Source: an uncultured virus (IMG/VR IMGVR_UViG_2061766007_003336)
Taxonomy: Duplodnaviria > Heunggongvirae > Uroviricota > Caudoviricetes
DNA length: 64,000 nt
Virus record (IMG/VR): IMGVR_UViG_2061766007_003336
Strand: one strand, 5' to 3'
Positions 6,107-60,709 of the stretch are shown here, piece after piece. Under the pieces are notes generated by a model, which had not been told where the DNA came from, did not search any database, and worked only from the letters and a program-made list of their open reading frames with translations. Numbering within the stretch: the first letter of the stretch is position 1; each line of letters opens with the position of its first letter. The position numbers and the translations under genes are program-made.

Positions 6107-6135
6107 AGTATATATTTCTACCCGGCCAGCGTCAA
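6107..6135 (-). promoter_or_regulatory. sigma70-type promoter
   Basis: TTGACG-N17-TATACT on the minus strand. Confidence 0.75.
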
Positions 6136-7700: not shown

Positions 7701-7728
7701 AGTATACTTTGACGCTGAGGTTTTTCAA
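7701..7728 (-). promoter_or_regulatory. sigma70-type promoter
   Basis: TTGAAA-N16-TATACT. Confidence 0.6.
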
Positions 7729-15364: not shown

Positions 15365-15393
15365 AGTATAGATATATTCACAACCATTGTCAA
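15365..15393 (-). promoter_or_regulatory. sigma70-type promoter
   Basis: TTGACA-N17-TATACT. Confidence 0.8.
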
Positions 15394-16129: not shown

Positions 16130-16132
16130 GGA

Positions 16133-18035: not shown

Positions 18036-18064
18036 ATTATAGCTTCCGGCAGCGGCTTTTGCAA
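18036..18064 (-). promoter_or_regulatory. sigma70-type promoter
   Basis: TTGCAA-N17-TATAAT. Confidence 0.75.
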
Positions 18065-19110: not shown

Positions 19111-19123
19111 CATGGAGGATGAA

Positions 19124-36983: not shown

Positions 36984-37501
36984 ACGCGCCTCCCGAGAAC
37001 TGTTGCCAGTTTCTCTTCGTATCTTGCTTCAAGCGCAGCGTTTGCGTTATTGGAGTCTCTTCTGCTCGCCGTCTTGTCTGAACGGACCTGTCTGCTGTCT
37101 GAGTAAGCCGAACGGGTAACGCTGAGTTTGTCAAGAACTGTGTGTTTGATAATCGAGCCGAGTTTTTCGCCGTCAATCTTTTCGTCCTGCATGTCCGCTT
37201 TCGCGAATGCGTCCGTAAGATCGGAAGCGAGATCAGGATCGAGTTTGGCTACGGTCTCAACGAGCTCATCCTTCATTTCATCTGAAACGGCTTCGGACGA
37301 GTTCGATTCAAGAGCTTTGTCGACTTCTTCAGCGATTACCGAGCCAGCCTTTTCAGCAAGCTCCCTCTGGTTCGCAGCTTCCTCAGCTGCAGCCTCAGCG
37401 AGCTTCGTTACAGAGTCAAGTTCCTCTGTGAGGGCTTTTATGGTATTCTGCTGATCGGAAGCGAGCTTAACCAACTCTTCCATCGAATAAGGTCTATCCA
37501 T
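36980..37501 (-). CDS. Putative scaffolding protein
   Basis: Acidic, Ala/Glu-rich coiled coil upstream of the capsid genes. Confidence 0.5.
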   Translation of the reverse strand: MDRPYSMEELVKLASDQQNTIKALTEELDSVTKLAEAAAEEAANQRELAEKAGSVIAEEVDKALESNSSEAVSDEMKDELVETVAKLDPDLASDLTDAFAKADMQDEKIDGEKLGSIIKHTVLDKLSVTRSAYSDSRQVRSDKTASRRDSNNANAALEARYEEKLATVLGRRV

Positions 37502-37563
37502 TGTTTGCCTCCGTTATGATTCAAAATCCACCGCCGGACACAATATCCGGCTTTACGATACAA

Positions 37564-37592
37564 AGTATATTAAAGGGGAAGGTTTATGTCAA
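37564..37592 (-). promoter_or_regulatory. sigma70-type promoter of the head operon
   Basis: TTGACA-N17-TATACT. Confidence 0.8.
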
Positions 37593-37606
37593 ATTTGTCA
37601 GCGGAA

Positions 37607-38815
37607 TCAGATTTCATCTGAAATCTCGAACAGGGGATCGTCCATAAAGGATCTTTCCCTGAGGTATTTGCTCAGGCCTGCTTTCAGGGAAAGTTTCTCG
37701 CCGGTCGTAATGCCGTCATCCTTGAAATCATCGTGAGCCAGAGAATCGGCGTAGCGTCTTGCACCGCCTACCTCGTCGAAATTGCGTCTGTAAATCAGAC
37801 GGGTTATTCCGGCAGGTCTGGTCTCGAAATCCTCTCTGCTCAGTGCATTAAGAAGGGTAGGATTGTCTGCAGAACCGGTTTTTACACCGCCGCCTTTCAT
37901 CATCTGTTCCTGAGCTTCCAGTTGTTTATATGTATCCATGAGCTTACCTATATTTACATGAGGACCGGTAACACGTTTGCTTCTCTTCTGCATAGCTGCC
38001 ACCTGGTTGGTTTTTTCATATGCTTTGCCCAGCGCCTCACCTATCATCTGGCCGCGCTGCGCAGTCTGGATTCTGTTGCGGGAAACGGTGTCATGTGCCG
38101 CTCTGTATCTCTGGCCTTCGAGTCCGCCAGGCAGGTGCTGGTACACCAGGTTGAGGCCCTTCTTTGCGAACCCGCGCTTGTAGCCTTTCTTCAGAGCATC
38201 CCAGGCATACTGCTTTTCATCATCAGTCAGCCTGCGTCCCGTTTCTGCGAAATATTCTTTATCTGCGAGTTCGATAAGTTTATCCATATCGTATTTCTGT
38301 GATCTCATCACGGGAACTTTGCCGGTGGTTCTCAGCGCAGCCTCTGCGGCATAGTAACCCGTAGCTTTGGCGTTGGCCTGCTGCTGTTTCATCGTAAGTT
38401 CGTTTACTGCCTGGCTCATTCCCGACAGTGCCTGCGCCCTGGCAGCCTGGAAAGCACGCTCGTCATAGTAGTCCTTTGCGCTGTCAAGAGCTATTGAACC
38501 GAGATCACTCTTCTTGTTTATTTTATAGGTAATCTTGGGAGCTCTGATAGCCTGCGTAAGCATCCCGCCTACCGGCACTCCCTGTACCTGGGCGTTCAGA
38601 ACTTTCTCGTACAGTGCGCCTGCCTGGGGCGACGTTGCCGCTGTTCTCATAAGCGCACGCTTGAACACTTCGGGATTGAACTTACCGTCCGGACCCTGGT
38701 AGAGGTCTTCCGGTTTGCCTCCCTCGATACTGGACAATCCGGCCACGGCCGCGTTGCGCACTTTGACTCCGGTATCCGAAGTGATTGCATCATTAAGTGT
38801 TTCTAAAACTCCCAT
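37607..38815 (-). CDS. Putative internal virion protein
   Basis: ATG at 38815 after ggagag; Ala/Gln/Lys-rich, helical. Confidence 0.65.
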   Translation of the reverse strand: MGVLETLNDAITSDTGVKVRNAAVAGLSSIEGGKPEDLYQGPDGKFNPEVFKRALMRTAATSPQAGALYEKVLNAQVQGVPVGGMLTQAIRAPKITYKINKKSDLGSIALDSAKDYYDERAFQAARAQALSGMSQAVNELTMKQQQANAKATGYYAAEAALRTTGKVPVMRSQKYDMDKLIELADKEYFAETGRRLTDDEKQYAWDALKKGYKRGFAKKGLNLVYQHLPGGLEGQRYRAAHDTVSRNRIQTAQRGQMIGEALGKAYEKTNQVAAMQKRSKRVTGPHVNIGKLMDTYKQLEAQEQMMKGGGVKTGSADNPTLLNALSREDFETRPAGITRLIYRRNFDEVGGARRYADSLAHDDFKDDGITTGEKLSLKAGLSKYLRERSFMDDPLFEISDEI

Positions 38816-38857
38816 CTGAGCTCTCCATCCATATATGCCGTACAGCACGGCAGGGTC

Positions 38858-43843: not shown

Positions 43844-44209
43844 TCACAAAGACATCAGCCTGAGAACGTCTTTCTCAGTGTGCCCGTCCCAGTGCGGAGC
43901 CTTTTCCAGCTCCCTGCAGTCAAACATATCCCAGTCCTTATCCTCATAATGATAGGTATACGGACCTTCGGGCGTGTCGAGTCCGACTATGAACCAACCG
44001 CCTCCGAAACACCTCTCACCATCCTCGTGTCTACGGGATTTCCAGGCCTTGTCCTTGTGGGACTTTACCAGCGCAGCGAACAGGACCATTCTCTGATGAT
44101 ACAGAGAATTAAAAGTGTGAAATCCGTCGGACAGCTCACCTATGTCGTAGATTCCTGCCAGTCTGCAGATTTCGTTACGCAATTCTTTGCTTCCGTTAAC
44201 CATTTCCAT
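43844..44209 (-). CDS. Conserved phage protein with WDGH motif
   Basis: SDG.HTF..LY.QR..LFA, WKS..H.DG, GWFIVG..TP.G..TYHY, AP.WDGHT. Confidence 0.75.
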   Translation of the reverse strand: MEMVNGSKELRNEICRLAGIYDIGELSDGFHTFNSLYHQRMVLFAALVKSHKDKAWKSRRHEDGERCFGGGWFIVGLDTPEGPYTYHYEDKDWDMFDCRELEKAPHWDGHTEKDVLRLMSL

Positions 44210-44927
44210 CATCTCCTCCTTTGATATGTTTTCCCATCCGGTATGCCAGAAGTGTGGATACCGCACCTACTGCCGGTGTCAGTGCATAAGTCCTCCAGCC
44301 TGTCCCGAGTCTCCGTTTTGCCGCAGCCAGAAATCTTTCAGGCGCACCTGATTTTCTCAGAAAGTTAAGACCTGTGCGGTTGGCAGAGAGTTCCCTCGCT
44401 ATTACCGGAATAGATGAAATAAACGGGGCTGCCGCGGCTCCGGCGAGCACGGCACCCGCAGGTGTTCCCGATGCTATTCCGGCAAAGGCTCCAAGAGCAG
44501 GCGTGCCTGCCAGCATCAGAGCCCTCCCTGCCGTTGTAGACATCAGGCTGCTGCCCTCAGCGATCCTGTGGGTCAGCCTTCCCAGCCGGTCGCCGTATCC
44601 TGGAACAAGATTCATAGCGTGCCCCAGCTCGTGCGCTGCGACGGCAGCTTCAGGATACACGCTGAGTAGCTTGCTGCCATGATTGTAAAAGCTTGCAGCA
44701 GCTTCGGGTGCTGCTTTGACTTTCAGACCCATTGACCGTGCCTTATCTGCCACTCTGCCTGCGAACCCGATGTTCTCCAGGCTGCGTGAAGCCTGAGACG
44801 TATCTCTGTTAAATGCTGAGTTCAGCCTGTCGATTTTGTAGGGGTAGTACAAAAGGGGAAGTACTGCGGCAGCTCCGTACATGTACGCCTTGGGGTTAAG
44901 TTCAGACTCGCGGTCCCACCTGTTCAT
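44196..44927 (-). CDS. Membrane-associated HExxH zinc metallopeptidase-like protein
   Basis: AVAAHELGHA, downstream RELSAN..G, hydrophobic helices. Confidence 0.65.
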   Translation of the reverse strand: MNRWDRESELNPKAYMYGAAAVLPLLYYPYKIDRLNSAFNRDTSQASRSLENIGFAGRVADKARSMGLKVKAAPEAAASFYNHGSKLLSVYPEAAVAAHELGHAMNLVPGYGDRLGRLTHRIAEGSSLMSTTAGRALMLAGTPALGAFAGIASGTPAGAVLAGAAAAPFISSIPVIARELSANRTGLNFLRKSGAPERFLAAAKRRLGTGWRTYALTPAVGAVSTLLAYRMGKHIKGGDDGNG

Positions 44928-44939: not shown

Positions 44940-47900
44940 TTAGTACTTAGGTCCGTTTTCCTTGAAAGGTCTGCCTACCAGCCACGGTGTGACCGGTGAT
45001 GTTGATTCTGCAGGGCTGACCTTGCCCTCGGCAACCGCTTCGGTGATTGTGCGTTTGATATACTTCTGCGCCAGGTTGCTGACCCAGTCATCTTCAAGCA
45101 TACCTGAAGTGTAGAAACTCTTTACTACAGGTTTGACTCTTACGCCTTCGGGGAATACGAGTATCGTTTTCGGACCTTCCTTTTTGAAATAGTCATCGAT
45201 ATCAGACTGCGTCAGTCTGGTCCCTGCCGAATATTCCCCGACTTCTTCTGCCAGACTCATGCCGGGGAGCAGCTCCGACGGTTTGACGGGAACACCTTTC
45301 TTCTTCCCAAGGTCGAGCAGCGTATTGTAAGAGATTGTGTCACCAGGAAGATACGAATCGAAAGCGCTCATTACTTCAACGTAATTTACAGCACCTTTCG
45401 CTATGACGGCCAGAGTCCTGTCGTCCACACTGCCTTCCGTTACCAGCTTGAGATCCTCAATCAGAGCATCACGCCCTGCCTTGACTCCCTTAAGTCTCGT
45501 CATATCCGTGTAAGGAAGCACTCCTTCAGTGAGTTTGTCACCGAGTTTGACCTTGTCCCCTACCTTCACGAGAATGTCACTGTCGGGATGAACGCGGTAT
45601 TTTTTACCTGATTCCATGTATATCATAGCGGGTGCACCCTTTCTGATCTCAATCTCGCTTACGGTGTCGTCCCTTTCTGACAGCGTAGCGACGCCTGCTT
45701 TGCTGGAGTCACTGCTGAATACGTTGGTGAGTCTCTCGAGACCGCCGCCGCCTACATCCCTGGTGATGTCACGTCCGCCGTGCTTGGAGTCAAGCGCTTT
45801 CTGTGAAATAGGCTCATTGGCGCCCTGCGCTGCTCTGAGTCCTACGTTGGTTCCTATATCAAGAAATTTCCAGTAGGAATCGGTGCCGTAACATTTCTGG
45901 CAGATACCTTCTTTGGCCGCGCATGTCTTCGGCGACCTTACAAGGATCTTCCTGTGGGGCAGCTTGCTCTGGTTGTCAGAGGTAATTACTGATCCCTTCT
46001 TGATTCCCGGAACCGTTTCCTGGATGACTTTCCCCAGAACTTCGTCAGAGTTCCAGTCAACTTCAACTCCGGCGTCTGTTCCGCAGTCTTCCATCGTGAT
46101 GACCTCCTTCATTACGTTGTAGGTCATCAGCTTCAGCATTGCACCGGGCGTAGCTACGTTGAGGGCTGTGGCGATAGCGTCCTTCTTGACCTTAATGTTC
46201 TGCTGCCAGAAGTCATACATATTGAGACCTTCACCGTACGAACCTTTTGTCAGAACTGCAGTCTGAACGGGCTTATCCGGATCATAGGAAAGAATTGGAC
46301 TTACTACGATACTCGCCAGCTGCATGTCGGAACCTTTAGCGCCTGACTCGACATTAAGTCTCAGGTCTCCGGGATGGTTCCTTGCGGCATCCTTTGCTTC
46401 GTTCTGTGCTGACTGGAGCAGCTGCGCCCTTTTCTTGAGGTCTTTCTCGTTTTCGATAGCTCGGGAGTACTTATTCAGAATTTTGTCCCTCTCCTTCGTC
46501 ATCGGCTTAATGTCCTCGACACCTACCGTGCTTCCTATCTCTGTAGCATACTTCGTTCCGAGATGCTGTATCTTGTCGTAGATCTCAGTGATCCTGTCAG
46601 GGGCATTCCTCGCTGCGGTAGCAAACATCTTCTTTGCCGCCTTCTTGTCGCAGGGAACAGGAACATCAGCTGCTCCTTTAAGGATAGCGTTCATATCGGC
46701 CCTGAACTTTTTCGGATCCTTCTTCGACATCTGGTAAAGACCGAGAATGGTTTCGGAAAGGAACCCTATCGACAATCCGCCTATCTTAACGTCGTTGAAC
46801 ACATTCTTTGACAGAAGCATTTTATCCAGTGATCTTGATACTTTGGCATTCGACGGAACGTGGATCTGGATCGCATCGCCGTCGAAGTCTGCGTTCAAAG
46901 GCTGGGTAGCGGTCAGATTAAGATGAATACTGGTGTCAGGAATGATCTTCGGATGTGCTGCAAGCATACCGAATCTGTGCAGTGTGGGCGCACGGTTATA
47001 CAGCACGTTGGTCTCTGCCGTAACATCCTCAAGCGCCTTCCTTGCCTGAGGCGTATGTTCGAGCATCATCTGCGAAGCTTCAAGCGGCGGTACACCGATC
47101 TGCTTGAGCTTGTTCATCACGTGAGGTTCGAACATCTTCCATGCCATAACCTCGGGAATGCCTATCTCGTCCATTGACAGACTTGCATCCGCAACAATTC
47201 TGGCACGGCCGGACAGATCCTGGTTCTTCTTAACCAGTGTACTCTGTATGTAGCCGTTCTTCGGCGAACCCACACCGCTGAGATAGGGAAGGACTCCCCG
47301 TGAACCTTTCTTTCTAAGCTGAATATTTGCCGTTTCTTCTGTGCCTACCAGCGCACCGACGTTGTTGAGCAGCACTTTCTTGGCGTCCGGAGCGAAAGCG
47401 GTGTCCTTCACACTTTTCAGACCTTCATTGGCCAGCATTATATCCTTGTAGAACAGGTTTACATCAGAGACCTGTACGCCTCCGTCCTGGAGTTTGGTGA
47501 TCGGCCGCATGATTGGCGGCGGCACCGGTATTTCCGTAATAATATAATCACTGAGTTTGTCTCCTCTCTTCTGAGTATTCTTAAGGAACCTGAGCTCCTT
47601 GATCTCGTTATTCGACAGGTCATTCTTCTTTGACTTGGCAGTCAGTTCCTTGACCCTGCCGTCGATGTCGAAAGCATCAAGTTCTTTTTTCATCTGCTTC
47701 GTCGTGCTGTTGGCCTGCCACGATTTCATTTCAGCTTCCGATTTTCCGAGAACGAGTCTCAAATGGCCTTCGACCATCGGAGAAATGATCCCGTCCTCAA
47801 GTTTCAGCTTCGACCAGAGTTTTCCGTTCAGGCCGCCGGTGGTGTTGGGGTCAAACAGCCCTTTCTTCATAGGCTCGAGATCTTTTGAGTTAAGAAGTGC

Positions 47901-50900
47901 AGGTGTCTGTATCTCTCTGTGCTGTGCAAGTCTGTCAGTTATTTTGTCGGTAACCGGCATGATTGATATTGACTCATTGTCCTGTGTAACGTAGCCGCCT
48001 GCTGCTGTCAGCAGACCTTTCGTCTGCTCCCAGGTTCCCGAGGTGGTCTTTGTCGGAACAGGAATGCCCATTTCCATGCCTTTCCAGTACTCATCATTTT
48101 TCTGGGCCTTGATGTTTCCTGCGTCGGTCAGGAACGCTCTGGCATTGTGGGCTACCAGCGCCCCGAACTCTGCAGCACCGATACCTTTGGCACCTTCGTG
48201 ACCGCCCTTTGACGGAGTGCCTGCATACGAGTAACTGGGGCCTACGCCTCTGGCAGAAAGATCCTTGTCGCCCTTAAGCAGTTTCATAAAATATGTGTAA
48301 CCTACAGCGATAGGCCGCTCGATGTTCTTTCCGGTCGTCGGATCGAAGAGGATCTCCTTGTCCTTGATACCGTATTTCTGCATCTCTTTAACAGTGAAGT
48401 CGTTCAGGTTATCAGCCGTCGGGTTTTTCGCTACCGGAACCTTGTAATGTTCCTTTTTCTTTCCGGAAGCTACGATCTTTCCAAGCGCATTTTCGTAGAC
48501 CTGGCCGGGATTGATACGTGTCGTTACTACAATCGACGAATGGATTACGTCAATAGGCTGGCCGCTTTCGTCCCTTATCATCTGATCGTCCGGAATGATC
48601 TTGCCTATCGTTCCCTTGTTGCCGTACATACCGGTAAGCTTGTCACCTACGACAGCCCTGTCTTCGGAAACAACCGTCACTGACACAAATCCTTTTTTCG
48701 ACGCAACATCAACAACTTTTCCGTCAGTGACTGTTTCGTACAGCTGTGAGCCGTCGACCAGGTCAACTACGATCTTATTGCTGATCTTGCCGAGCTGGGC
48801 TATTCTGTCGTCAGGTGTTCTTCTTTCTATGATAAGCATGACCGGTTCGTGATATTTCACGGTCTCGCCTTTCTTGATTACGCCGTTTGCGTCATATTTG
48901 TCAAAGTCAACAAGATTCTGGTACTTGCTGCCGAACATGTTCATAAAGCGCTGCTTGTCCAGAATGAAGTTATCGTTGATCTTGGAACTGAACGTATGGT
49001 AATGCAGCGACGTGAGCTTTTCCGCACAGCTCTCGGAAATAACCACGCTGTCCTCAGAGTTCTCACCGTAGTACGGCATGAACGCCAGCTTCAGGTTCTT
49101 GCCGAGCGCGAGTTTGCCGTCGTCGGTGGTGTAGCCGTCCTGTACAACCATCTGTCCCTTTCTGATCTTGTCTCCCGGCTTGACCAGAGGGGTCTGGTTG
49201 ACACCGGTGTTGGTAGCGAACGGCAGATATTCATGGTACTGAATGACCTGTTTCTTCCCGTTTTCGTCCTTCAGCTCAATCTTTCCGTCACCGACTTTTG
49301 TAACGGTACCGCTGTAGGGAGACTCCATAGGAAGAAGCGATTCAAGATCCTTCCTCATTTTTCTGTATGTTGACACCCCCTTGTCGTCAACCGGCTCTAC
49401 CAGAGGAGTTTCTCCGTACTTCAGGGGAACAGCCTGTGTGACCTGGCGAGCCGTCATAAAACTTCTGTTGCCCTGTGTAGCCTGGGGAAAAGGAACAAGC
49501 TGGTTTACCGTATTGAAAAGGCTGGAAGTTCCGTGCGGGAGCTTGTAGTCGTAATGTTCTCCCTTCTTGAGCTTCTGCATCTTTCCCTTGTACATGACGT
49601 ATCTGTTCTTGTCCGAAGCAACCTCAGGAACAAGTACCTTCTTATCATATGTATCGGCAAGCGGGATATTTTTGACTTCGCCGCCGGGAGTCGAAAGCGG
49701 GAGGTAAATTTCTCCTGATTTGTCGATCTTGACATCGTCGGTCATGTTCAGCTGGATACCTACGTTCATGCCCTGAGCCGAAGCGGTAGGATCGATGATG
49801 CCGAAGTATGAGGAGTGAACGCCTCGTTTAGCACGTGACACCGCGTTCACGTCGGAGATACCTCCCATGCCCAGCGGAGAGATCTTTGTACTCGCAACGT
49901 ACATTCCTATCGGATTGTACTGCGGATCAAGCCTGCTCAGATCGGAAGAGTTGACCAGGCTGACGAGATACTTCGAAAAAATATTATTGAAGATTTTGGA
50001 ATACGCATGTCCTAGTTTGATTTTATGTCTTACGCCGTTCGCGATCTCGTTAGTGACTTTCTGAAGTCTGTCCTTGAAAAGCATGTTCGGCGGATAGAGC
50101 TTCTGGTAGTAAAGGTCGTCGGGGTCAATACCTTCATCCTCCCCTGCATTGACTTCGTAGAACTTCTTAAGGATCTCCTTCATAAAGGCCTTGTCAATCT
50201 TCTTGTGTTCATCGTTGAACAGGTACTTCGTAGTCTTGGGATCGACCGCAGTCTGTTCAAAATATTCCTTACAGCCCTTCCTGAGATCTTCAAGCGGGAT
50301 TGTTCTTACGTCCTCCTGCTTGAACTCATAGAGTTTGCCGTAGAGCTTTCTGAAGTTGTTGATCTGGGTCTGCTGTGCATCTACAGCGTCCCAGTGGTCT
50401 TTGGCAAACTGTTCATCAGTACAGTCAACAAGATCTTTTCTGGTAAAACCAAGACTCTCAAGCATGGGTCTGATTGCAACCGATCCGTTACCGATGTTCA
50501 TTACCACCAGGCCGGAAGCATCATCCATTGATAAATCAAAGTTACGTCCCTTGGCAAGGTTGAAATCCGCTACGGCTCCGCCCTGGCCGCCGTTAGTCGT
50601 ATAGACGTAAACCGACGACTTTCTTCTGGGCTGGTTGATCAGGTTGTATTCTGACCCTGTTACCATAAATGTGTTCCTGCCTTCAAGCAGCTGGGGAAGC
50701 TGGCCTATCTGGAGATGCCTTTCAAGTACTTTTTTTCTTCCTCCGTCATACTCCACTACGTCCCCGTAGACCTTGGTCAGAATACTTTTCTGAAAGGTTA
50801 CAGCCTCCTTGATGGCCATGGTCGAGTCTGCAGAGGAGTCTCTTTTAAACTCCACGTTCTCGAACGTAATATACGGTCCGTCGGCCTTCTTGGTCAACGG

Positions 50901-50987
50901 TATCTTCATCTCTTCGATTCCTTCCTTTACGCTCTGCTCCACATCATCGGGCTTGCAGCCCCATCCGACTTTTGAAAGTTCAGGCAT
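44940..50987 (-). CDS. rpoBC: Single-chain fused beta-beta' DNA-directed RNA polymerase (~2015 aa)
   Basis: beta motifs (ISPLGMGG, LALGKN..AFMPY.G.NSEDS, GDKLTG.YGNKG, RINPGQ) then beta' motifs (IPVPPP.MRP, DLSGR, NRAPTLHR, NADFDGD at 46875-46895, EDCGT, RSP.TC....ICQKCYG, AAQ..NEP.SQ); ATG at 50987 after gggag. Confidence 0.95.
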   Translation of the reverse strand: MPELSKVGWGCKPDDVEQSVKEGIEEMKIPLTKKADGPYITFENVEFKRDSSADSTMAIKEAVTFQKSILTKVYGDVVEYDGGRKKVLERHLQIGQLPQLLEGRNTFMVTGSEYNLINQPRRKSSVYVYTTNGGQGGAVADFNLAKGRNFDLSMDDASGLVVMNIGNGSVAIRPMLESLGFTRKDLVDCTDEQFAKDHWDAVDAQQTQINNFRKLYGKLYEFKQEDVRTIPLEDLRKGCKEYFEQTAVDPKTTKYLFNDEHKKIDKAFMKEILKKFYEVNAGEDEGIDPDDLYYQKLYPPNMLFKDRLQKVTNEIANGVRHKIKLGHAYSKIFNNIFSKYLVSLVNSSDLSRLDPQYNPIGMYVASTKISPLGMGGISDVNAVSRAKRGVHSSYFGIIDPTASAQGMNVGIQLNMTDDVKIDKSGEIYLPLSTPGGEVKNIPLADTYDKKVLVPEVASDKNRYVMYKGKMQKLKKGEHYDYKLPHGTSSLFNTVNQLVPFPQATQGNRSFMTARQVTQAVPLKYGETPLVEPVDDKGVSTYRKMRKDLESLLPMESPYSGTVTKVGDGKIELKDENGKKQVIQYHEYLPFATNTGVNQTPLVKPGDKIRKGQMVVQDGYTTDDGKLALGKNLKLAFMPYYGENSEDSVVISESCAEKLTSLHYHTFSSKINDNFILDKQRFMNMFGSKYQNLVDFDKYDANGVIKKGETVKYHEPVMLIIERRTPDDRIAQLGKISNKIVVDLVDGSQLYETVTDGKVVDVASKKGFVSVTVVSEDRAVVGDKLTGMYGNKGTIGKIIPDDQMIRDESGQPIDVIHSSIVVTTRINPGQVYENALGKIVASGKKKEHYKVPVAKNPTADNLNDFTVKEMQKYGIKDKEILFDPTTGKNIERPIAVGYTYFMKLLKGDKDLSARGVGPSYSYAGTPSKGGHEGAKGIGAAEFGALVAHNARAFLTDAGNIKAQKNDEYWKGMEMGIPVPTKTTSGTWEQTKGLLTAAGGYVTQDNESISIMPVTDKITDRLAQHREIQTPALLNSKDLEPMKKGLFDPNTTGGLNGKLWSKLKLEDGIISPMVEGHLRLVLGKSEAEMKSWQANSTTKQMKKELDAFDIDGRVKELTAKSKKNDLSNNEIKELRFLKNTQKRGDKLSDYIITEIPVPPPIMRPITKLQDGGVQVSDVNLFYKDIMLANEGLKSVKDTAFAPDAKKVLLNNVGALVGTEETANIQLRKKGSRGVLPYLSGVGSPKNGYIQSTLVKKNQDLSGRARIVADASLSMDEIGIPEVMAWKMFEPHVMNKLKQIGVPPLEASQMMLEHTPQARKALEDVTAETNVLYNRAPTLHRFGMLAAHPKIIPDTSIHLNLTATQPLNADFDGDAIQIHVPSNAKVSRSLDKMLLSKNVFNDVKIGGLSIGFLSETILGLYQMSKKDPKKFRADMNAILKGAADVPVPCDKKAAKKMFATAARNAPDRITEIYDKIQHLGTKYATEIGSTVGVEDIKPMTKERDKILNKYSRAIENEKDLKKRAQLLQSAQNEAKDAARNHPGDLRLNVESGAKGSDMQLASIVVSPILSYDPDKPVQTAVLTKGSYGEGLNMYDFWQQNIKVKKDAIATALNVATPGAMLKLMTYNVMKEVITMEDCGTDAGVEVDWNSDEVLGKVIQETVPGIKKGSVITSDNQSKLPHRKILVRSPKTCAAKEGICQKCYGTDSYWKFLDIGTNVGLRAAQGANEPISQKALDSKHGGRDITRDVGGGGLERLTNVFSSDSSKAGVATLSERDDTVSEIEIRKGAPAMIYMESGKKYRVHPDSDILVKVGDKVKLGDKLTEGVLPYTDMTRLKGVKAGRDALIEDLKLVTEGSVDDRTLAVIAKGAVNYVEVMSAFDSYLPGDTISYNTLLDLGKKKGVPVKPSELLPGMSLAEEVGEYSAGTRLTQSDIDDYFKKEGPKTILVFPEGVRVKPVVKSFYTSGMLEDDWVSNLAQKYIKRTITEAVAEGKVSPAESTSPVTPWLVGRPFKENGPKY

Positions 50988-51076
50988 AGTAATCTCCCGC
51001 CAACAGTTAACACCCGGCCAATATACTATTAAAAGCAAAAAAAATAAAGAATGCGCTGAGGCGTTTTTCCCGTATG

Positions 51077-51092
51077 AAAATTGACATAAGTA
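51077..51092 (+). promoter_or_regulatory. Plus-strand phage promoter-like motif, copy 5
   Basis: aaaattgacataagta upstream of the NAD cluster. Confidence 0.6.
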
Positions 51093-51153: not shown

Positions 51154-51990
51154 ATGAAAGCAACATTCTCAGAACTCGTCGCTGCAATCAGAAACGATCT
51201 CGCGGGACGAAAGGCGGTTATAGGAATCTCCGGCGGAAAAGATTCCTCGATAGCAGCTGCGCTCATTGCGCTGGCTATCGGAAAAGAAAACGTCGTCGGC
51301 ATCTCGATGCCGAACGGTGAAGGCAAAGAAGACGAACCTTTCGTTAAGGCTTTGGAGAAATGGTTTGACCGGGAGTTCATCAAGGTCAACATCAAAAGCA
51401 CTTATGAAACGATGCTGGCTCAGATGAAAGGGATCGAGATCCTGGAGGACACCAGGATCAATCTTGCTCCGAGAATCAGGATGGCAATGCTGTTTGCCTA
51501 TGCGCAGAGTATCCCCGGTTCGCGGGTAATAAATACCTGCAACCTGAGCGAGGATATGCTCGGCTACTCGACGTTATTCGGGGATCTGGCCGGCAGCTAT
51601 GCCCCGTTGAAGTATTTTACGGTAAACGAGATCATCTCGGTTCTCGGGGAAACTCTCATCAAAAGCTACGGATTTCCCAGAGAGCTTGTTTACAGAGTTC
51701 CTACGGACGGTCTGTGCGGCAGCACTGATGAAGAGAAACTAGGCTTATCGTACTACGAGCTTGACAGCTTTATCAGGACCGGTAAAACCCTCGGGCCGCA
51801 AGACTGGTTCCTTGAGCGGGATTACGGCTGTTCAAACCTCGATCGTCGTATCGACTTTTTAGCTAAAGTACGATCTAAATACGAGGCCAATAAGTTCAAA
51901 CTCCGGATTGTCAATATACCTGGCCCGTCCATTGACCCGGCACAAGGTAAGAATTTCCTGGTCTACCCTAAGAACGGCGAAACAGAATAA
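51154..51990 (+). CDS. nadE: NH3-dependent NAD+ synthetase
   Basis: VIGISGGKDSS, NLAPRIRM, NTCNLSE...GYST.FGD, PTDGL...TDEEKLG.SY.ELD; ATG at 51154 after ggaggag. Confidence 0.92.
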   Translation: MKATFSELVAAIRNDLAGRKAVIGISGGKDSSIAAALIALAIGKENVVGISMPNGEGKEDEPFVKALEKWFDREFIKVNIKSTYETMLAQMKGIEILEDTRINLAPRIRMAMLFAYAQSIPGSRVINTCNLSEDMLGYSTLFGDLAGSYAPLKYFTVNEIISVLGETLIKSYGFPRELVYRVPTDGLCGSTDEEKLGLSYYELDSFIRTGKTLGPQDWFLERDYGCSNLDRRIDFLAKVRSKYEANKFKLRIVNIPGPSIDPAQGKNFLVYPKNGETE

Positions 51991-52010
51991 AATTTTTAAA
52001 GGAGGAGAAA

Positions 52011-52595
52011 ATGACAACAAAGTATTTGCTCGTCATAGACGGACAAAACGACTTCATCACCGGATCACTCAGAAATGAGGAAGCGATCCGCAAACTTCCT
52101 AACATTCTTAAGAAAGTTAAGGAGACGGATGTTAACGAGACCATGATCATCGCGACCCAGGACACTCACGGCGAGAATTATCTTGAGACGCTTGAGGGGC
52201 AGAAGCTGCCTGTCCCGCATTGTATCTACAGCTCGTGGGGCTGGCAGATCGAGGATGAACTCTACAGACTTTTGACTGAAGTCAAACCGACAGAGATCCG
52301 GAAACCGTTCAAACCGGCCACCGGCGTCGGCATTGTGACCAAGCCGACGTTCGGCAGCCTTGACCTGCTGGAAGGCATCTACACAGAGGTAGAAGATACC
52401 CCGGTAGAATTTGAGATCATAGGGTACTGCACGGATATCTGTGTGATATCAAACGCTCTCCTTCTGAGAGCGAAGTTCCCCAATGCTAAGATAACGGTCG
52501 ACGCATCATGCTGCGCGGGCATAACGCCTGAGCTTCATAAAGCTGCGCTGGCGGTTATGAAAAGCTGTCAGATTGACGTCGTTAACGAAGAATAG
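52011..52595 (+). CDS. pncA: Nicotinamidase (isochorismatase family)
   Basis: LLVIDGQNDF, TQDTH, PHC, KPTFGS, GYCTDICV. Confidence 0.9.
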   Translation: MTTKYLLVIDGQNDFITGSLRNEEAIRKLPNILKKVKETDVNETMIIATQDTHGENYLETLEGQKLPVPHCIYSSWGWQIEDELYRLLTEVKPTEIRKPFKPATGVGIVTKPTFGSLDLLEGIYTEVEDTPVEFEIIGYCTDICVISNALLLRAKFPNAKITVDASCCAGITPELHKAALAVMKSCQIDVVNEE

Positions 52596-52603
52596 GAGGC
52601 GAT

Positions 52604-53419
52604 ATGATAATTATAGACGGCAAACCTTATAAATGGGAGCATTTTCCCAATAACGAAACCAAATTTCCGTTTGTTGATATCCGAACCGATTCACAGATCA
52701 CCTGGCTTTGGGAAAATAACGAGGAGTTCTTCGTTATCCAGATGATCACGAAACACCTTAAGGACCACGACGGGAAGGTCAAACTCGTTGTTCCGTTCTG
52801 TCCCTACGGGCAGCAGGACCGCAAGATGCCTGGACAGCTCTTCAGCTGGAAATACTTTGCGCAACTGGTCAATGACGCAGGCTTCTACAGCGTCGTTATT
52901 GTCGACCCCCACAGCAGAGTTATGACCGCGTCACTCAACCGCAGTTATGCAACGTATCTGGAGCTTGACATGAGTACCCTGTTCCGCAGAGGGTACGATA
53001 TGGTGTTTTACCCTGACAACGGGGCTGCCAAGAAATATAGCGAGATTTACACCGATGTCCCTTACCGTTTCGGCAACAAGAAACGCGACCTGAGCACCGG
53101 AAAGCTCACCGGTTACGAGGTTATTGCCGATAAAAAAGATATCGAGGGCCAGAAAATTCTGATCGTAGACGATATCTGCATGGGCGGAAGCACCTTCAGG
53201 GAAGCTGCGAAAGCGCTCCTTGAGATGGGCGCTGAATGCGTGGGTCTCCAGATCACGCATTTTATGCCCCAGTCAGAAGAGTTCCTGAAGCATTTCAGGG
53301 AATACGGCATCAGCGAGGTTTACACTTACGGCGACGGTATATCCCGTCTGCTCTACGCAAATATGGATGCCGAGGAGTGTAAGTTTATTTCTTTAACGTC
53401 TAGACTGATAGGAGAATAA
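52604..53419 (+). CDS. prs: PRPP-synthetase-like pyrophosphokinase (Adps-like by context)
   Basis: FPNNE, PYGQQDR, DPHS, PDNGA, ILIVDDICMGGSTF. Confidence 0.85.
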   Translation: MIIIDGKPYKWEHFPNNETKFPFVDIRTDSQITWLWENNEEFFVIQMITKHLKDHDGKVKLVVPFCPYGQQDRKMPGQLFSWKYFAQLVNDAGFYSVVIVDPHSRVMTASLNRSYATYLELDMSTLFRRGYDMVFYPDNGAAKKYSEIYTDVPYRFGNKKRDLSTGKLTGYEVIADKKDIEGQKILIVDDICMGGSTFREAAKALLEMGAECVGLQITHFMPQSEEFLKHFREYGISEVYTYGDGISRLLYANMDAEECKFISLTSRLIGE

Positions 53420-53420
53420 T

Positions 53421-55226
53421 ATGAGTAGACCATGCACACTTTTGAAGACAGACTTCTACAAGCTCTGTCACCTGAATATGTACGACAAGCGTGTCGTACG
53501 TATGACGTCCTATCTGACCCCCAGAGGGTCGAGATTTCCTGAACAGAACTGGGTGATGATGTTCGGACTGCAGATGTTTGTACACAGATATCTGCTCAAG
53601 GACTTTGACAACAACTTCTTCTCACTCCCGTGGGAAGAAATCGAGGAGCAGTACAAAACGGTTCTTGAGAAATCGCTCCTCTATTCCGAAAGGGAATACA
53701 GTCAGACTCTCGAGAAGGTAAAGGCGCTTCACGACCTCGGATATCTGCCGGTAAAGGTCAGGGGTCTCCCTGAAGGCAAAAAGGTTCCTGTAGGCGTTCC
53801 CTGCGTTGAGATCAGTGTTACAGACGACCGTTTCGCCTGGGTAGGCCAGGCAGTCGAATGTCTTCTTTCCTGCAGTATCTGGCATCCGATGGTGTCGGCA
53901 ACAGTCGGTTACCGTTACCGCGAGCTTGCGCATGAGTTCGCGAAAAAGTCTTCGGACAAGTCGGACGGAACGATGTCGATGTGTGACTTCTCGCTTAGAG
54001 GTCAGGAGAGTATGGAATCAGCGGTCGCCAGCAGTGCAGGCTGGCTGGCATCGATGAAGAACAGCTCTACCGTTCCGGCAAGGGCACTCATAGAAGAGTG
54101 CTATCCGGCAACGGACAAGGACAAACTTCAGGTCTACGGTCTTACTTCGACAGAGCATTCCGTTATGACAACGGACTTCGCCATCAACGGCGATGAACGT
54201 GAGACCTACCGCAGACTCCTTACAGAGGTCTATCCGAACACCAGTTTCGCGGCTGTATGCGACAGCTACGACTACTGGCGCGTACTTACCGAGATACTTC
54301 CGTCGCTCCGACCTGAAATCGAGGCGCACAAAGGCTTCATAGGAGTACGTCACGACTCGGCTGAACCTGTAGAGGCACTCTGCGGCATTCCCCAGATCGT
54401 AATAGAACGCCCAGCAGCGCCGGATCCGAAAGGCGACTATAAGGACCTTTACGAGAAAGCGATCTCAGCATGCGGCGACTGTTTCGCCGAATACCAGGGA
54501 TCCGGTCAGAAGTTCGGTGAAGAGTTCAAGGTCTTCATCATCCTTACCGACAAGGAACATCCATACCCGAACCTCGGCAACCAGTATCTCGGCAAGATCG
54601 TTACAGGCAAATACGCTGTCGACAGATCAGACGGAATCTCCTATAAGATCACGAACGTCGAAACCCGTGAACGCACGTGGGAAGAGAAGGGTATGATCGA
54701 AACGGTATGGGAGATCTTCGGAGGAACAATCAACTCCAAAGGCTATCGTGTAAATAACCCGCACGTAAAGGCGGTTTACGGAGATTCTATCACCCTTGAG
54801 CGTGCAAGGAAGATTTTCGAGCGTATGGAAGCCAAAAAGTTCGCTATCGATAATATCAGTCTCGGCGTAGGCAGCTTCTCGATGCAGGCTGTCGAGTGGG
54901 GCGGTAAGCTCTACCCCTTCACAAGGGATACGTTCAGCATTGCCGTCAAATGCACATGGGCACAGCTGGACAACGGCACCAGGATTCCCGTCTATAAGGA
55001 TCCCAAAGGATTCACTGGCAAAAAGAGCCAGAAGGGCCTCTGCCTTGTTACCGAGGATCCTGAAAAAGGCTACGTCTTCACCGACGGTCACCTCGATCCT
55101 GAGCCGCTTGAGGCCGATCCTCATAATGCAATGATCACCTACTTTGCTAACGGATCCGAGGCTGAAGGACCGCAGCGTGACTTCGCTTACGTTCGTGAGA
55201 ACATCAATCAGTATTTCAAAGACTAA
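53421..55226 (+). CDS. nadV: NAMPT-family phosphoribosyltransferase (Namat-like by context)
   Basis: TDFYKLCH, DFSLRG, STEHSVM, DSYD, RHDS, GDSIT, TRDT, KDP...KKSQKG. Confidence 0.88.
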   Translation: MSRPCTLLKTDFYKLCHLNMYDKRVVRMTSYLTPRGSRFPEQNWVMMFGLQMFVHRYLLKDFDNNFFSLPWEEIEEQYKTVLEKSLLYSEREYSQTLEKVKALHDLGYLPVKVRGLPEGKKVPVGVPCVEISVTDDRFAWVGQAVECLLSCSIWHPMVSATVGYRYRELAHEFAKKSSDKSDGTMSMCDFSLRGQESMESAVASSAGWLASMKNSSTVPARALIEECYPATDKDKLQVYGLTSTEHSVMTTDFAINGDERETYRRLLTEVYPNTSFAAVCDSYDYWRVLTEILPSLRPEIEAHKGFIGVRHDSAEPVEALCGIPQIVIERPAAPDPKGDYKDLYEKAISACGDCFAEYQGSGQKFGEEFKVFIILTDKEHPYPNLGNQYLGKIVTGKYAVDRSDGISYKITNVETRERTWEEKGMIETVWEIFGGTINSKGYRVNNPHVKAVYGDSITLERARKIFERMEAKKFAIDNISLGVGSFSMQAVEWGGKLYPFTRDTFSIAVKCTWAQLDNGTRIPVYKDPKGFTGKKSQKGLCLVTEDPEKGYVFTDGHLDPEPLEADPHNAMITYFANGSEAEGPQRDFAYVRENINQYFKD

Positions 55227-55763: not shown

Positions 55764-56519
55764 ATGCGGTTCGGAATCATTTTAGCGCGACTGAGAAAGA
55801 AAAAAGGCTATTCCCAGGACGGTCTGTCCCGCAAGCTCGGTCTCAGTCTCTGTCCACTCAGGCAGTGGGAAAAAGGTGATAGGCTGCCGACGGAAGACAA
55901 TTTTCTGAAGATCCTGAAAGTGTTCGGAAGAAACGAGATGCTGATAGAGGCCTACTATAGGGCCCGCAACTCGGAAGGCGGATCAGGCACACGCGCCTTC
56001 AGAAACCCGCAGGGAGAGTCTTTCGGCAGCAGACTGAGACAGCTGATGACCGAACGTGAGCTCTCTGCCAACTCACTAGCCAGGTATCTTAAGGTGACGA
56101 CCAATATGGTACGGACATGGCTCAGGGACCAGAAACTTCCTTGTGCAGGCAACTTCGACAAGCTCTTTGACCTGCTCGGGGAGGATCTTGTTCTGGTAGA
56201 GCTGTACGTCTCTACACAGAAGTTTCAGCACAGCTGGGCCATGCTGCGCAACAACCAGAAAAAACAGAAGAGGTGTCCAGGACCGAGATCAGCATTCTGT
56301 GACACGCTGAGAAACGAAAGGCTGAAGCTGCACATGTCCCAGGCCGACCTGGGGCATGAGCTCGGGATCAGCAACTCGGCTGTGTCTTTGTGGGAATCGA
56401 AAGGAGTGCTCCCCGATCCGCCTAAATTCGAGCGGCTGGCGGGCATCCTCAATCTGTCTCAGGAGACCCGTGACGAATATGCAAAACTTAAGAAAAAGCG
56501 GTTGAAAGGAGGAGTGTGA
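55764..56519 (+). CDS. Triple XRE helix-turn-helix protein
   Basis: Three repeats of F...LR......SQ..L...LG.S...V..WE....P. Confidence 0.88.
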   Translation: MRFGIILARLRKKKGYSQDGLSRKLGLSLCPLRQWEKGDRLPTEDNFLKILKVFGRNEMLIEAYYRARNSEGGSGTRAFRNPQGESFGSRLRQLMTERELSANSLARYLKVTTNMVRTWLRDQKLPCAGNFDKLFDLLGEDLVLVELYVSTQKFQHSWAMLRNNQKKQKRCPGPRSAFCDTLRNERLKLHMSQADLGHELGISNSAVSLWESKGVLPDPPKFERLAGILNLSQETRDEYAKLKKKRLKGGV

Positions 56520-59981: not shown

Positions 59982-60131
59982 ATGAAGAAAACATGCGGGT
60001 GCTGTTTCAACACCTACAAAGCAAAAATACCGCTTGCTCCGAAAGAGCAGGAAGTTGAGGAAAAAGAACGGGAAAAATACCTGAAACTTAAGGAAGAATA
60101 TCTGGAACTTGAGAAAAAATACGGAGGTTAG
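59982..60131 (+). CDS. 49-aa protein ending YLELEKKYGG (not in ORF track)
   Basis: RBS ggaggt; MKKTCGCCF...EREKYLKLKEEYLELEKKYGG*; tail shared with 60699 and 61689. Confidence 0.65.
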   Translation: MKKTCGCCFNTYKAKIPLAPKEQEVEEKEREKYLKLKEEYLELEKKYGG

Positions 60132-60133
60132 AA

Positions 60134-60709
60134 ATGACACAACTAACACGTGAGACGATTACTCTGGCATACGACCCGACTTACGGCTGGGTCAGCATAG
60201 TGGTTGACCTGGACGGTACAGCTCCTATGCTGTGGCTTTATACAGAACGAACCGGAGAGATCAGAGATACCGGTGGCATCCTTGCCGGCTTACACCCCGT
60301 AATCCCGCCCCTGGATAAAGGAGGGTCTTATAGAGAAGACCAGGTTTACTGCTGGGCGGGTCTGGACTGCTCCTCACGGGACGAAATCAAGGATCTGGTC
60401 TCGAACGTATATGACTGCCTTCAGGGTATGCAGGCAGCATGTCTCGGCCTTTTCGCTGCTCCAGAGATTGATGGCAAACGGGATAGAGAAAGGGAAGTGC
60501 AGTCTGTTGCCAAAAAAATCCTTAGTGAGGCGGTGGACAGACTAAAGGCTCTATTGAGTCATTCTGATCTTAAATCCGGAAAGCAGAGCGTAGAGACCAA
60601 CACAAGACAAGCAAGTGATAGACTTCGTGAGAGGATCGAAAAGCTGGAAACCGAATTGTCTAAACTAAAACGAATAGAGAAAAGATACGGAGGAAATAAT
60701 GACAACTGA
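60134..60709 (+). CDS. Hypothetical protein C1 (paralog of 61115-61696)
   Basis: ETI.LAYD...GW, PVIPP, Y.WAGL and SDL..G shared. Confidence 0.85.
   Translation: MTQLTRETITLAYDPTYGWVSIVVDLDGTAPMLWLYTERTGEIRDTGGILAGLHPVIPPLDKGGSYREDQVYCWAGLDCSSRDEIKDLVSNVYDCLQGMQAACLGLFAAPEIDGKRDREREVQSVAKKILSEAVDRLKALLSHSDLKSGKQSVETNTRQASDRLRERIEKLETELSKLKRIEKRYGGNNDN

What the first reader, a model, noticed from the sequence alone, without database searches (positions are those of the whole stretch)
44940..50987. Compact single-chain beta-beta' RNA polymerase of bacterial type in a phage
Seen: beta then beta' conserved blocks in one ~2015-aa frame. The end of beta (SGTWEQTKGLLTAAGGYV) joins the start of beta' (ISIMPVT...EIQTP) through only a few residues near 47970-47990. 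The beta' N-terminal zinc finger is missing (GLFDPNTTGG goes straight to WSKLKL), the C-terminal Zn site is kept, and normally invariant residues differ (GRHGNKG to GMYGNKG, KLxH to KLLK). No alpha or omega gene is recognisable in the window. Known: cellular beta+beta' total about 2400-2750 aa; fusions occur in Helicobacter and Wolbachia; phiKZ-like phage enzymes are instead split and far more diverged. Its position among virion genes suggests it is packaged (inference).
Basis: partly seen in the sequence, partly recalled or inferred. Interest (0 to 1): 0.8.

Follow-up and report, generated by a model that had tools for sequence, protein, structure and literature searches.

The report
Single-chain phage RNA polymerase with sigma
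A large uncultured phage encodes the two big catalytic subunits of a bacterial-type RNA polymerase as one 2015-residue protein, a design shared by many unstudied phages and probably run with the phage's own sigma factor.

Summary
One minus-strand gene (44940-50987, ATG with a GGGAG ribosome site) encodes 2015 aa, with beta (residues 1-1006) joined directly to beta' (1007-2015). The catalytic motifs and the C-terminal Zn site are intact. The beta' N-terminal Zn finger is absent, and GRHGNKG/KLxH read GMYGNKG/KLLK.

It is neither an artefact nor a recent capture. Twenty protein clusters at 39-90% identity share the length (2008-2045 aa) and the junction. 48 of the 80 nearest IMG/VR loci also carry a full fusion. 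Two trees place it in a phage-only clade beside Salmonella phage Arash and Vibrio phage D69, apart from bacteria and from the published mReC phages.

New here:
- The window also encodes a sigma70-family protein (15401-16129). Its homologues lie directly downstream of the polymerase in two clade relatives.
- No alpha or omega gene, and only one polymerase set, was found in five relatives' genomes.
- An HK97-like capsid gene lies in the same minus-strand run of genes as the polymerase.

Virion packaging stays an inference. It rests on the Arash proteome, which its authors themselves qualify.

Verdict: a real, probably active enzyme and a new variant of a known kind. It is common in metagenomes, and I found no description of it as a fusion.

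The parts
44940..50987 (-). Single gene for a fused beta-beta' RNA polymerase, 2015 aa plus stop
   Evidence: Open frame; Pfam Rpb2_6, Rpb1_2 and others; PDB phmmer E 3.5e-63 to B. subtilis beta'; 20 clusters at 39-90% identity with the same length
50994..50998 (-). Shine-Dalgarno-like GGGAG, 6 nt before ATG 50987
   Evidence: Read from the sequence
47970..50987 (-). Beta module, residues 1-1006
   Evidence: Aligns to Synechococcus-type beta 8syi_C over query 86-962. Against Salmonella beta it lacks 1-23, 225-342, 934-1045 and 1128-1179
44940..47969 (-). Beta' module, residues 1007-2015
   Evidence: Against Salmonella beta' it lacks 1-19, 68-99, 142-179, 531-581, 705-719, 947-1134 and 1377-1405, and has 44 extra residues at 1901-1944
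48612..48647 (-). Beta double-psi-barrel motif GDKLTGMYGNKG (residues 781-792). Both lysines are kept; R and H are replaced by M and Y
   Evidence: R absent in 14 of 14 window-clade rows; GRHGNKG-type in 27 of the 28 bacterial rows the call lists (of 29)
47778..47861 (-). Site where the beta' N-terminal Zn finger is missing (residues 1043-1070)
   Evidence: No Cys in any of 13 rows of A1. The same Cys-free, Zn-finger-less pattern stands in the 16 fused-clade rows that one search printed (8 of 14 window-clade, 8 of 33 other; every row was unique there). Salmonella 68-99 is fully gapped
46875..46895 (-). Catalytic Mg site NADFDGD (residues 1365-1371)
   Evidence: N, A, D, D, G and D invariant in 13 of 13 rows of A1; the F is Y in one row, P0022
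45891..46085 (-). Second Zn site: C1635, C1689, C1696, C1699
   Evidence: Invariant in A1; aligned to Salmonella C814, C888, C895 and C898
15401..16129 (-). Sigma70-family protein (242 aa), the inferred initiation factor of the polymerase
   Evidence: ESM Atlas 0.96 to viral Sigma70_r3/SigF clusters. Fold with pLDDT 75; all 49 listed Foldseek rows are sigma factors, E down to 2e-5. Homologues in 4 of 5 relatives' genomes, including Arash gp10. Directly downstream of the polymerase in L179 and L086
33879..35219 (-). Probable HK97-fold major capsid protein in the same minus-strand run of genes (context for the packaging idea)
   Evidence: Model pLDDT 55.7. VIA-align: 50 of 50 listed entries are capsid proteins or encapsulins, Z 5.3-7.3. 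Foldseek gave nothing significant

Best explanation
The gene encodes a working DNA-dependent RNA polymerase of a large tailed phage. The beta and beta' catalytic subunits of a bacterial-type enzyme are made as one 2015-residue chain.

Shown:
- It is one frame, with the catalytic residues intact.
- The joint and the length are conserved across a deep, phage-only clade. Full fusion is the commonest state there (48 of 80 nearest loci), and splits inside beta' are scattered through the clade.
- No alpha or omega gene was found in five relatives' genomes, and each holds one polymerase set.
- A sigma70-family gene is present in the window, is conserved in the clade, and is adjacent to the polymerase in two close relatives.

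Inferred:
- The covalent joint replaces the alpha dimer as the assembly platform, so the chain is a self-sufficient core (about 0.6).
- The phage sigma gives it promoter specificity, making a two-protein holoenzyme (about 0.7).
- It is insensitive to rifampicin, because the counterparts of D516 and H526 are P and A (about 0.7).
- It is made together with the head genes and carried in the virion to start transcription in the next cell (about 0.45).
For: One frame, ribosome site and family matches.

Active-site conservation in A1, which spans 33-90% identity: the catalytic Asp triad and G of NADFDGD (F is Y in one row), most of NRAPTLHR, both beta lysines, the trigger-loop His (H1736) and four Zn cysteines.

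Fusion conserved: 20 clusters of 2008-2045 aa; continuous frames in L178, L179 and L181; 48 of 80 IMG/VR loci fully fused, 17 beta+beta'N, 14 separate, 1 partial.

Trees: the fused phage clade, the window clade and the bacteria are each one side of a starred branch, in FastTree (85 rows) and in IQ-TREE quick (50 rows).

Alpha (PF01000) in 0 of 5 and omega (PF01192) in 0 of 5 relatives' genomes; controls 14 of 14. One beta' catalytic locus in 5 of 5.

Sigma. The clamp-helix region is retained (13 of 48 identical, 4 gapped).

Packaging: in Arash virion mass spectrometry gp206 (beta+beta'N) had the most spectra (3516), gp216 had 1210 and sigma gp10 had 467 (passages of PMC10585845). A capsid-like gene is on the same strand 10 kb downstream, and its homologue follows the polymerase in L179.
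Against: There is no experiment on this protein or on any fully fused relative.

Residues near the active site differ from all cellular enzymes sampled: R and H of GRHGNKG, and H of KLxH. The bridge helix is only 6 of 37 identical to Salmonella, and the flap-tip region that binds sigma region 4 is 4 of 31 identical.

The sigma could instead redirect the host polymerase. In the window it lies 29 kb from the polymerase gene.

Sigma70-type promoter-like sites are enriched in window 1-20000 (40 against 18.6 +/- 4.1 expected). Several sit before minus-strand genes, which fits early transcription by the host enzyme and so weakens the need for a packaged polymerase.

The Arash proteome listed 116 proteins, including ribonucleotide reductases and ligases. 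Its authors say abundant enzymes may be carried over.

The capsid assignment rests on a low-confidence model and Z below 8.

The trees have no archaeal or eukaryotic outgroup, and the bacterial sample is skewed to Patescibacteria.
Confidence: 0.75

Rival explanations
1. The polymerase is real and active but is not packaged. It is made after infection under host transcription and, with the phage sigma, transcribes middle or late genes, like the non-virion polymerases of jumbo phages or T7.
For: Sigma70-type promoter-like sites are twice as many as expected in window 1-20000. Near-consensus sites lie before minus-strand genes, for example TTGCAA-17-TATAAT at 18064..18036, which heads the unit holding the sigma gene. 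A second, distinct motif, AAANTGNNATAAGTA, stands before five plus-strand units, so there are at least two promoter classes. The Arash authors themselves allow carry-over of abundant enzymes.
Against: In Arash the polymerase chain had more spectra than the major capsid protein (3516 against 1333). The gene heads a minus-strand run of genes that holds a capsid-like gene. Only one polymerase set is present per genome in 5 of 5 relatives, so no separate virion enzyme exists.
Confidence: 0.4
2. The fused chain is only the catalytic part. It still needs the host's alpha dimer and omega to fold and work, as the natural beta-beta' fusion of Helicobacter does (recalled).
For: No phage alpha or omega was found, so if they are needed they must come from the host. 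The beta module keeps the general bacterial layout.
Against: The beta' C-terminal stretch, where omega binds in bacteria (recalled), is cut down: 13 of 57 columns are gapped and 1377-1405 is missing. Jumbo-phage polymerases work without alpha and omega (PMC7598289, passages). Identity to any cellular subunit is at most about 33% (over only 15% of the query), 23-28% where 30% or more is covered, so host alpha contacts are unlikely to be kept across the many hosts of this clade. I did not test the alpha-contact surfaces.
Confidence: 0.25
3. A recently captured cellular rpoBC, a binned bacterial fragment, an inactive relic or an assembly chimera.
For: Fused bacterial rpoBC genes exist in the database (P0092-P0097, 2461-2621 aa). 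Some relatives sit in bins labelled as bacteria (L086, L088).
Against: The best cellular proteins reach about 23-28% identity (up to 33% over 15% of the query) against 39-90% for 20 phage-type clusters. Bacteria and bacterial fusions form their own starred clade. The two bins searched hold an ordinary rpoC on another contig. The frame has no stop and the active site is conserved. The same fusion occurs in independent assemblies.
Confidence: 0.03

Closest known systems
Salmonella phage Arash gp206 + gp216, and Vibrio phages D69/D181/D148
   Same: Nearest cultured relatives, at 27-28% identity. They are in the same starred clade as the window lineage (98-99). Beta is fused to the start of beta', the Zn finger is absent, and a homologous sigma is present (Arash gp10). 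There is one polymerase set and no alpha or omega.
   Different: Their beta' is cut after the catalytic barrel into a 1525-1527 aa chain and a chain of about 610 aa. In D181 and D148 the match spans a homing-endonuclease gene. The window's chain is unbroken. Their gene neighbours are not shared with the window. The Arash paper names the proteins beta and beta' and does not mention the fusion in the passages I read.
mReC, the multimeric-RNAP-encoding Caudovirales of Weinheimer and Aylward 2020 (PMC7481178)
   Same: Tailed phages with polymerase subunits that still align well with cellular beta and beta' and branch outside the cellular clades.
   Different: In 89 of the 104 'Metagenomic phage' rows of their Supplementary Dataset 2 that I read, beta and beta' are two different proteins (900-1563 and 899-1391 aa); none is fused (15 rows unread). 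Loci of that type (L066-L083; L082 and L078 have the contig lengths of two table entries) show the order beta' then beta. They form a separate long branch next to bacteria, not with the window.
phiKZ/AR9-type jumbo-phage polymerases
   Same: Phage-encoded two-barrel enzymes without alpha and omega; one form is packaged in the virion (PMC7598289).
   Different: They are split into four or five polypeptides, come as two sets per genome, have no recognisable sigma homologue and are far more diverged. Here there is one chain, one set in 5 of 5 relatives, and a sigma70-family partner. PHROG matches to their subunits are weak (E 5e-28 to 1e-7) against 2e-65 for the unnamed phrog_25354.
Cellular beta-beta' fusions (Helicobacter, Wolbachia: recalled; metagenomic examples P0092-P0097)
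   Same: Same order, beta then beta', in one frame.
   Different: The cellular fusions keep the full bacterial domain set and are 2461-2621 aa. They cluster with bacteria. The window's chain is 2015 aa, lacks the Zn finger and beta' residues 1-19, and is of phage descent.
crAss-like gp66, YonO and P23-45 single-chain two-barrel polymerases
   Same: Both barrels are in one polypeptide; the crAss-like and P23-45 enzymes are virion-borne (abstracts; text of PMC7481178).
   Different: Those have no detectable similarity to the beta and beta' profiles (PMC7481178). This one matches Pfam and solved bacterial subunits at E 1e-40 to 1e-63.

Membership tests
Bacterial-type two-barrel RNA polymerase catalytic core (beta + beta') | Beta' barrel with the NADFDGD Mg site | tested here: met
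   Residues 1365-1371; N, A, D, D, G, D invariant in 13 of 13 rows of A1, F replaced by Y in one row
Bacterial-type two-barrel RNA polymerase catalytic core (beta + beta') | Beta barrel with the two lysines of GDK...NKG | tested here: met
   K783 and K791 are invariant; the R and H between them are replaced
Bacterial-type two-barrel RNA polymerase catalytic core (beta + beta') | Beta and beta' Pfam domains in cellular order | tested here: met
   Rpb2_6 and Rpb1_2 are above cut-off; Rpb2_3, Rpb1_1, Rpb1_3 and Rpb1_5 are in order but below cut-off
Bacterial-type two-barrel RNA polymerase catalytic core (beta + beta') | Beta' N-terminal Zn finger | tested here: not met
   Salmonella 68-99 is gapped in 32 of 32 columns; no Cys in any row of A1 at this site
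Bacterial-type two-barrel RNA polymerase catalytic core (beta + beta') | Alpha dimer and omega as core subunits | tested here: not met
   None in the window ORFs. PF01000 and PF01192 in 0 of 5 relatives' genomes, controls 14 of 14. Use of host subunits was not testable.
Bacterial-type two-barrel RNA polymerase catalytic core (beta + beta') | Template-dependent RNA synthesis | not testable with these tools
   Needs the purified protein
mReC phage polymerases (PMC7481178) | Separate beta and beta' proteins of at least 800 aa each | tested here: not met
   The window has one chain. 89 of 89 table rows read have two proteins.
mReC phage polymerases (PMC7481178) | Falls in the mReC clade | tested here: not met
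   mReC-type loci L066-L080 form their own starred branch away from the window clade
phiKZ/AR9-type jumbo-phage polymerases | Subunits split into four or five polypeptides, two sets per genome | tested here: not met
   One chain here; one beta' catalytic locus in 5 of 5 relatives' genomes. The window's own whole genome is not held.
phiKZ/AR9-type jumbo-phage polymerases | No sigma homologue | tested here: not met
   A sigma70-family gene lies at 15401-16129
Arash-like fused phage polymerase clade | Beta joined to beta' without the Zn finger; shared descent | tested here: met
   The junction and the Zn-finger-less motif are shared in the rows printed. The window clade groups with Arash and D69 at 98-99 support.
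Arash-like fused phage polymerase clade | Presence in virions | not testable with these tools
   Known only for Arash, from one proteome
Sigma70 family (for the 15401-16129 product) | Fold of sigma domains 2, 3 and 4 | tested here: met
   All 49 listed Foldseek rows are sigma factors, alignments of 235-275 columns, E down to 2e-5. Pfam and NCBIfam gave no match.
Sigma70 family (for the 15401-16129 product) | Binds this polymerase | not tested
Only gene linkage is available.

The most novel reading that the evidence does not exclude
A two-protein holoenzyme: one self-folding beta-beta' chain plus one cognate sigma, needing neither alpha nor omega. It would be carried in the capsid and injected, so that a whole overlooked clade of phages of roughly 165-195 kb transcribes independently of the host. 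This clade would be distinct from both mReC and phiKZ-like phages, with the fusion as its ancestral state. It would be the smallest known bacterial-type polymerase system that still uses sigma-type promoter recognition.
Probability: 0.3. Interest if true: 0.8.

Novelty: new variant of a known kind. Interest (0 to 1): 0.6.

Why it matters
Bacterial polymerase is built on an alpha dimer, and the known phage relatives are either broken into many pieces (phiKZ, AR9) or diverged beyond recognition (crAss, YonO).

This form is still readily alignable with the bacterial enzyme, yet it is one chain about 16% shorter than the Staphylococcus pair (2015 aa against open frames of 1185 + 1215 aa). No alpha or omega gene is in sight, and it has its own sigma.

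If it works alone, it gives three things:
- a simple system in which to ask what alpha, omega and the Zn finger are for;
- a possible one-gene-plus-sigma orthogonal transcription module;
- a marker for a large phage clade that published surveys of phage multisubunit polymerases did not list.

If it only works with host subunits, it is still a new way for a phage to replace the host catalytic core.

Tried and rejected
- Whole genome of the window: not held.
- Earlier findings of this scan: none, by place or by sequence.
- Single-protein scan of IMG/VR: no relative found. The alignment query was needed.
- Neighbour annotation by PHROGs, Pfam and NCBIfam: almost nothing, even at E up to 0.1-1.
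- tblastn of all window ORFs against 171 loci around relatives' polymerases: only the polymerase is shared. The 1181-aa neighbour had no match in five relatives' genomes.
- ESM Atlas for that neighbour: only a weak tape-measure lead (0.89-0.91, low shared counts). I do not rely on it.
- Foldseek on the capsid-candidate model: nothing at E <= 0.001. Only the wide VIA-align search gave a consistent picture.
- Literature: seven searches (one more was malformed). None found a paper describing a fully fused bacterial-type beta-beta' polymerase in phages. The library holds open-access papers only.
- The idea that this is an mReC member: rejected on the supplementary table and the trees.
- The iterated sigma profile drifted to cellular sigma A. 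That shows homology, but its counts for bacterial loci are not relevant here.


Full report
**Observation.** The minus strand holds one open frame from 51401 to 44940. It matches the first residue of the relatives and gives 2015 aa. Pfam finds Rpb2_6 (residues 572-925, E 4e-40) and Rpb1_2 (1254-1382, E 7e-23) above their cut-offs. Rpb2_3, Rpb1_1, Rpb1_3 and Rpb1_5 are in the cellular order but just below cut-off. Among solved structures the best matches are bacterial. B. subtilis beta' scores E 3.5e-63, and an 1100-aa beta aligns over query residues 86-962.

**Anatomy.** I aligned the two halves with full-length Salmonella and Staphylococcus subunits and 20 other sequences, then read off named regions. 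The names of the regions and their roles are recalled; the numbering was checked on the Salmonella letters printed there.
- The last beta residue aligns with residue 1006 and beta' residue 20 with residue 1007. The joint (window 47970-47972) therefore has no added linker, and beta' residues 1-19 are gone.
- Beta lacks Salmonella 225-342, 934-1045 and 1128-1179. Staphylococcus lacks these three insertions too.
- Beta' lacks 68-99 (the four-Cys Zn finger), 142-179, 531-581, 705-719, 947-1134 (the large trigger-loop insertion, also absent from Staphylococcus) and 1377-1405. It has 44 extra residues at 1901-1944.
- Kept: NADFDGD, NRAPTLHR, both lysines of GDK...NKG, the trigger-loop His (H1736), the second Zn site (C1635, C1689, C1696, C1699), and the clamp-helix region (13 of 48 identical).
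- Weakly kept: the bridge helix (6 of 37 identical), the flap-tip region (4 of 31) and the rim helices (15 of 54 gapped).
- In the rifampicin cluster I the counterparts of D516 and H526 are P and A. By recalled resistance genetics this predicts insensitivity.
They are specific to the window's lineage: no R in 14 of 14 rows, whereas most other fused-clade rows that the call lists keep R and most keep the H of KLxH.

**Relatives and the fusion.** A search of 5.8 billion proteins gave 224 hits.
- Twenty clusters (P0002-P0021) have 39-90% identity, full coverage and lengths of 2008-2045 aa. They come from four kinds of source.
- Dozens more at 27-32% identity are also about 1990-2100 aa. Others are about 1450 aa (beta plus the first part of beta') or 2400-2900 aa with intein domains.
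- Cellular beta' proteins appear only at E about 1e-60, with mostly 24-28% identity (up to 33% over 15-17% of the query).
- In alignment A1 the junction is conserved.
- IMG/VR holds at least 508 relatives among 588 candidate stretches, all at 35% identity or less.
- In the best 80 loci I classed the open frames with two profiles cut from A1. 48 are full fusions (median frame 2109 aa), 17 are beta+beta'N, 14 are separate genes and 1 is partial.
- Metagenome loci at 92%, 62% and 46% identity again show one frame.
- The fusion is therefore neither an assembly artefact nor rare.

**Phylogeny.** I built a supermatrix of 1672 columns, with beta and beta' aligned apart. It was analysed by FastTree (85 rows) and by IQ-TREE quick with LG+G4 (50 rows).
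- Both trees give a starred clade of all fused and beta+beta'N phage forms.
- Inside it is a starred window clade, joined at 98-99 support to Arash plus Vibrio D69 and to two IMG/VR beta+beta'N loci.
- The bacteria sampled, including the long bacterial fusions, are one side of a starred branch.
- The beta+beta'N label needs three changes on the tree. So splits within beta' arose more than once inside a fused clade.
- Limits: there is no archaeal or eukaryotic outgroup. The bacterial loci came from a pattern scan that favours Patescibacteria. Many rows have odd composition.

**What is in print.**
- *Weinheimer and Aylward 2020.* I read the Results, two Methods sections, term passages and Supplementary Dataset 2. 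They describe phages with beta and beta'. In the 89 of 104 phage rows that I read, the two are always different proteins. Two of my 'separate' loci have the contig lengths of their entries (152,423 and 149,482). That group has the order beta' then beta, and in my trees it sits on a long branch next to bacteria. The window's clade is therefore not their mReC.
- *The Arash paper* (passages). It names gp206 and gp216 beta and beta' without noting that gp206 is a fusion.
- *Reviews of jumbo-phage polymerases* (passages). They describe split enzymes without alpha, omega or sigma homologues.
- *Searches.* Seven literature searches found no description of this fused form. Subscription journals are not covered.

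**Partners.**
- *Sigma.* The 242-aa product of 15401-16129 has no Pfam or NCBIfam match. The ESM Atlas puts it next to viral Sigma70_r3 and SigF clusters (0.96). Its model (pLDDT 75) matches only sigma factors in the 49 listed Foldseek rows (E down to 2e-5).
- *Sigma homologues in relatives.* They occur in 4 of 5 relatives' genomes. One is Arash gp10, annotated as a sigma factor and seen in the virion proteome.
- *Sigma position.* In the 62% relative L179 the sigma gene lies 2.2 kb downstream of the polymerase on the same strand. In L086 it lies 240 nt downstream. Several homologues share contig lengths with polymerase relatives.
- *Alpha, omega and copy number.* Alpha and omega profiles hit 0 of 5 relatives' genomes against 14 of 14 controls. 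Each genome has one beta' catalytic locus.

**Context and packaging.** The polymerase gene heads a run of minus-strand genes from 50987 down to 23546.
- Its members have no family matches.
- A fold of 33879-35219 has low confidence (pLDDT 55.7). In a search of 48,161 chains it matched only HK97-fold capsid proteins and encapsulins in the 50 listed rows (Z 5.3-7.3). Foldseek found nothing significant.
- In L179 the homologues of window genes 37607-38848 through 33879-35219 follow the polymerase and sigma in the same order. In Arash the portal gene precedes the polymerase.
- Together with the Arash proteome this makes packaging plausible.
- Against it: sigma70-type sites are enriched in window 1-20000, and the Arash authors add their own caveat.

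**Mechanism.**
- Most likely, the chain is a self-assembling core whose covalent joint does the work of alpha. The phage sigma supplies promoter recognition.
- A motif found in passing, AAANTGNNATAAGTA, is a candidate promoter class. It has five copies, all 55-80 nt before plus-strand genes, against 0.32 expected.
- Which enzyme reads which class of promoter is open.

**Novelty.** It is a new variant of a known kind. Phage multisubunit-type polymerases and beta-beta' fusions are both known. This combination is a fully fused, still bacterial-like chain with a cognate sigma, in a wide phage clade. It is plentiful in public data, but I found no description of it.

Noticed in passing
window 88-102, 7743-7757, 18087-18101, 19591-19605, 51078-51092 (+): Motif AAANTGNNATAAGTA: five copies, all on the plus strand, each 55-80 nt before the first gene of a plus-strand unit. 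Expected 0.32; 0 of 100 shuffles reach 5. It is a candidate phage promoter class without a -35 element.
   Followed up: partly
window 1-20000, e.g. 18064..18036, 15393..15365, 7728..7701, 6135..6107 (-): Sigma70-type promoter-like sites are twice as frequent as in shuffles (40 against 18.6 +/- 4.1). Near-consensus ones sit just before minus-strand genes, including the unit that holds the sigma gene.
   Followed up: partly
window 51155-55226 (+): NAD salvage cluster: NAD synthase, an isochorismatase-family protein, a ribose-phosphate pyrophosphokinase-like protein and nicotinamide phosphoribosyltransferase. The true start of the first gene is probably ATG 51155, not GTG 51094.
   Followed up: partly
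window 36980-38848 (-): A 413-aa gene and a 173-aa gene lie upstream of the capsid-like gene. The short one has a faint match to the C-terminal part of a portal profile (phrog_1497, E 0.045). They may be a portal in two frames. The same two-gene layout is seen in L179.
   Followed up: no
window 157-1485 (+) and 55764-56519 (+): Proteins with two or three Cro/C1-type helix-turn-helix domains in one chain.
   Followed up: no
window 63370-63708 (+): Cpn10 (GroES-like) co-chaperonin, Pfam E 2.4e-07.
   Followed up: no
window 20489-21379 (+); 43844-44266 (-); 1488-2342 (+): A ThiF-family protein, a WDGH-domain protein (E 8e-42) and a MYG1-exonuclease-like N-terminus.
   Followed up: no
window 60099-60190 and 61080-61171 (+): A 92-nt direct repeat at 74% identity spans the starts of two neighbouring genes (60134-60709 and 61115-61696), which look like tandem paralogues.
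   Followed up: no
relatives P0024-P0026, P0031, P0035, P0063; loci L027, L051, L073, L081: Many fused polymerase genes of the wider clade carry intein or LAGLIDADG domains, with frames up to 3596 aa. The window's copy has none.
   Followed up: no
L066-L083, L004 (Cobetia phage Carin-5): The mReC-type phages have the gene order beta' then beta, the reverse of bacteria. Carin-5 has a sigma gene directly upstream. Several mReC contigs in the published table carry two polymerase sets.
   Followed up: no
P0091, P0095, P0098 (2228-2276 aa): A third group of fused beta-beta' proteins, on contigs of 54-170 kb. It branches between the phage fused clade and the bacteria and keeps GRHGNKG.
   Followed up: no
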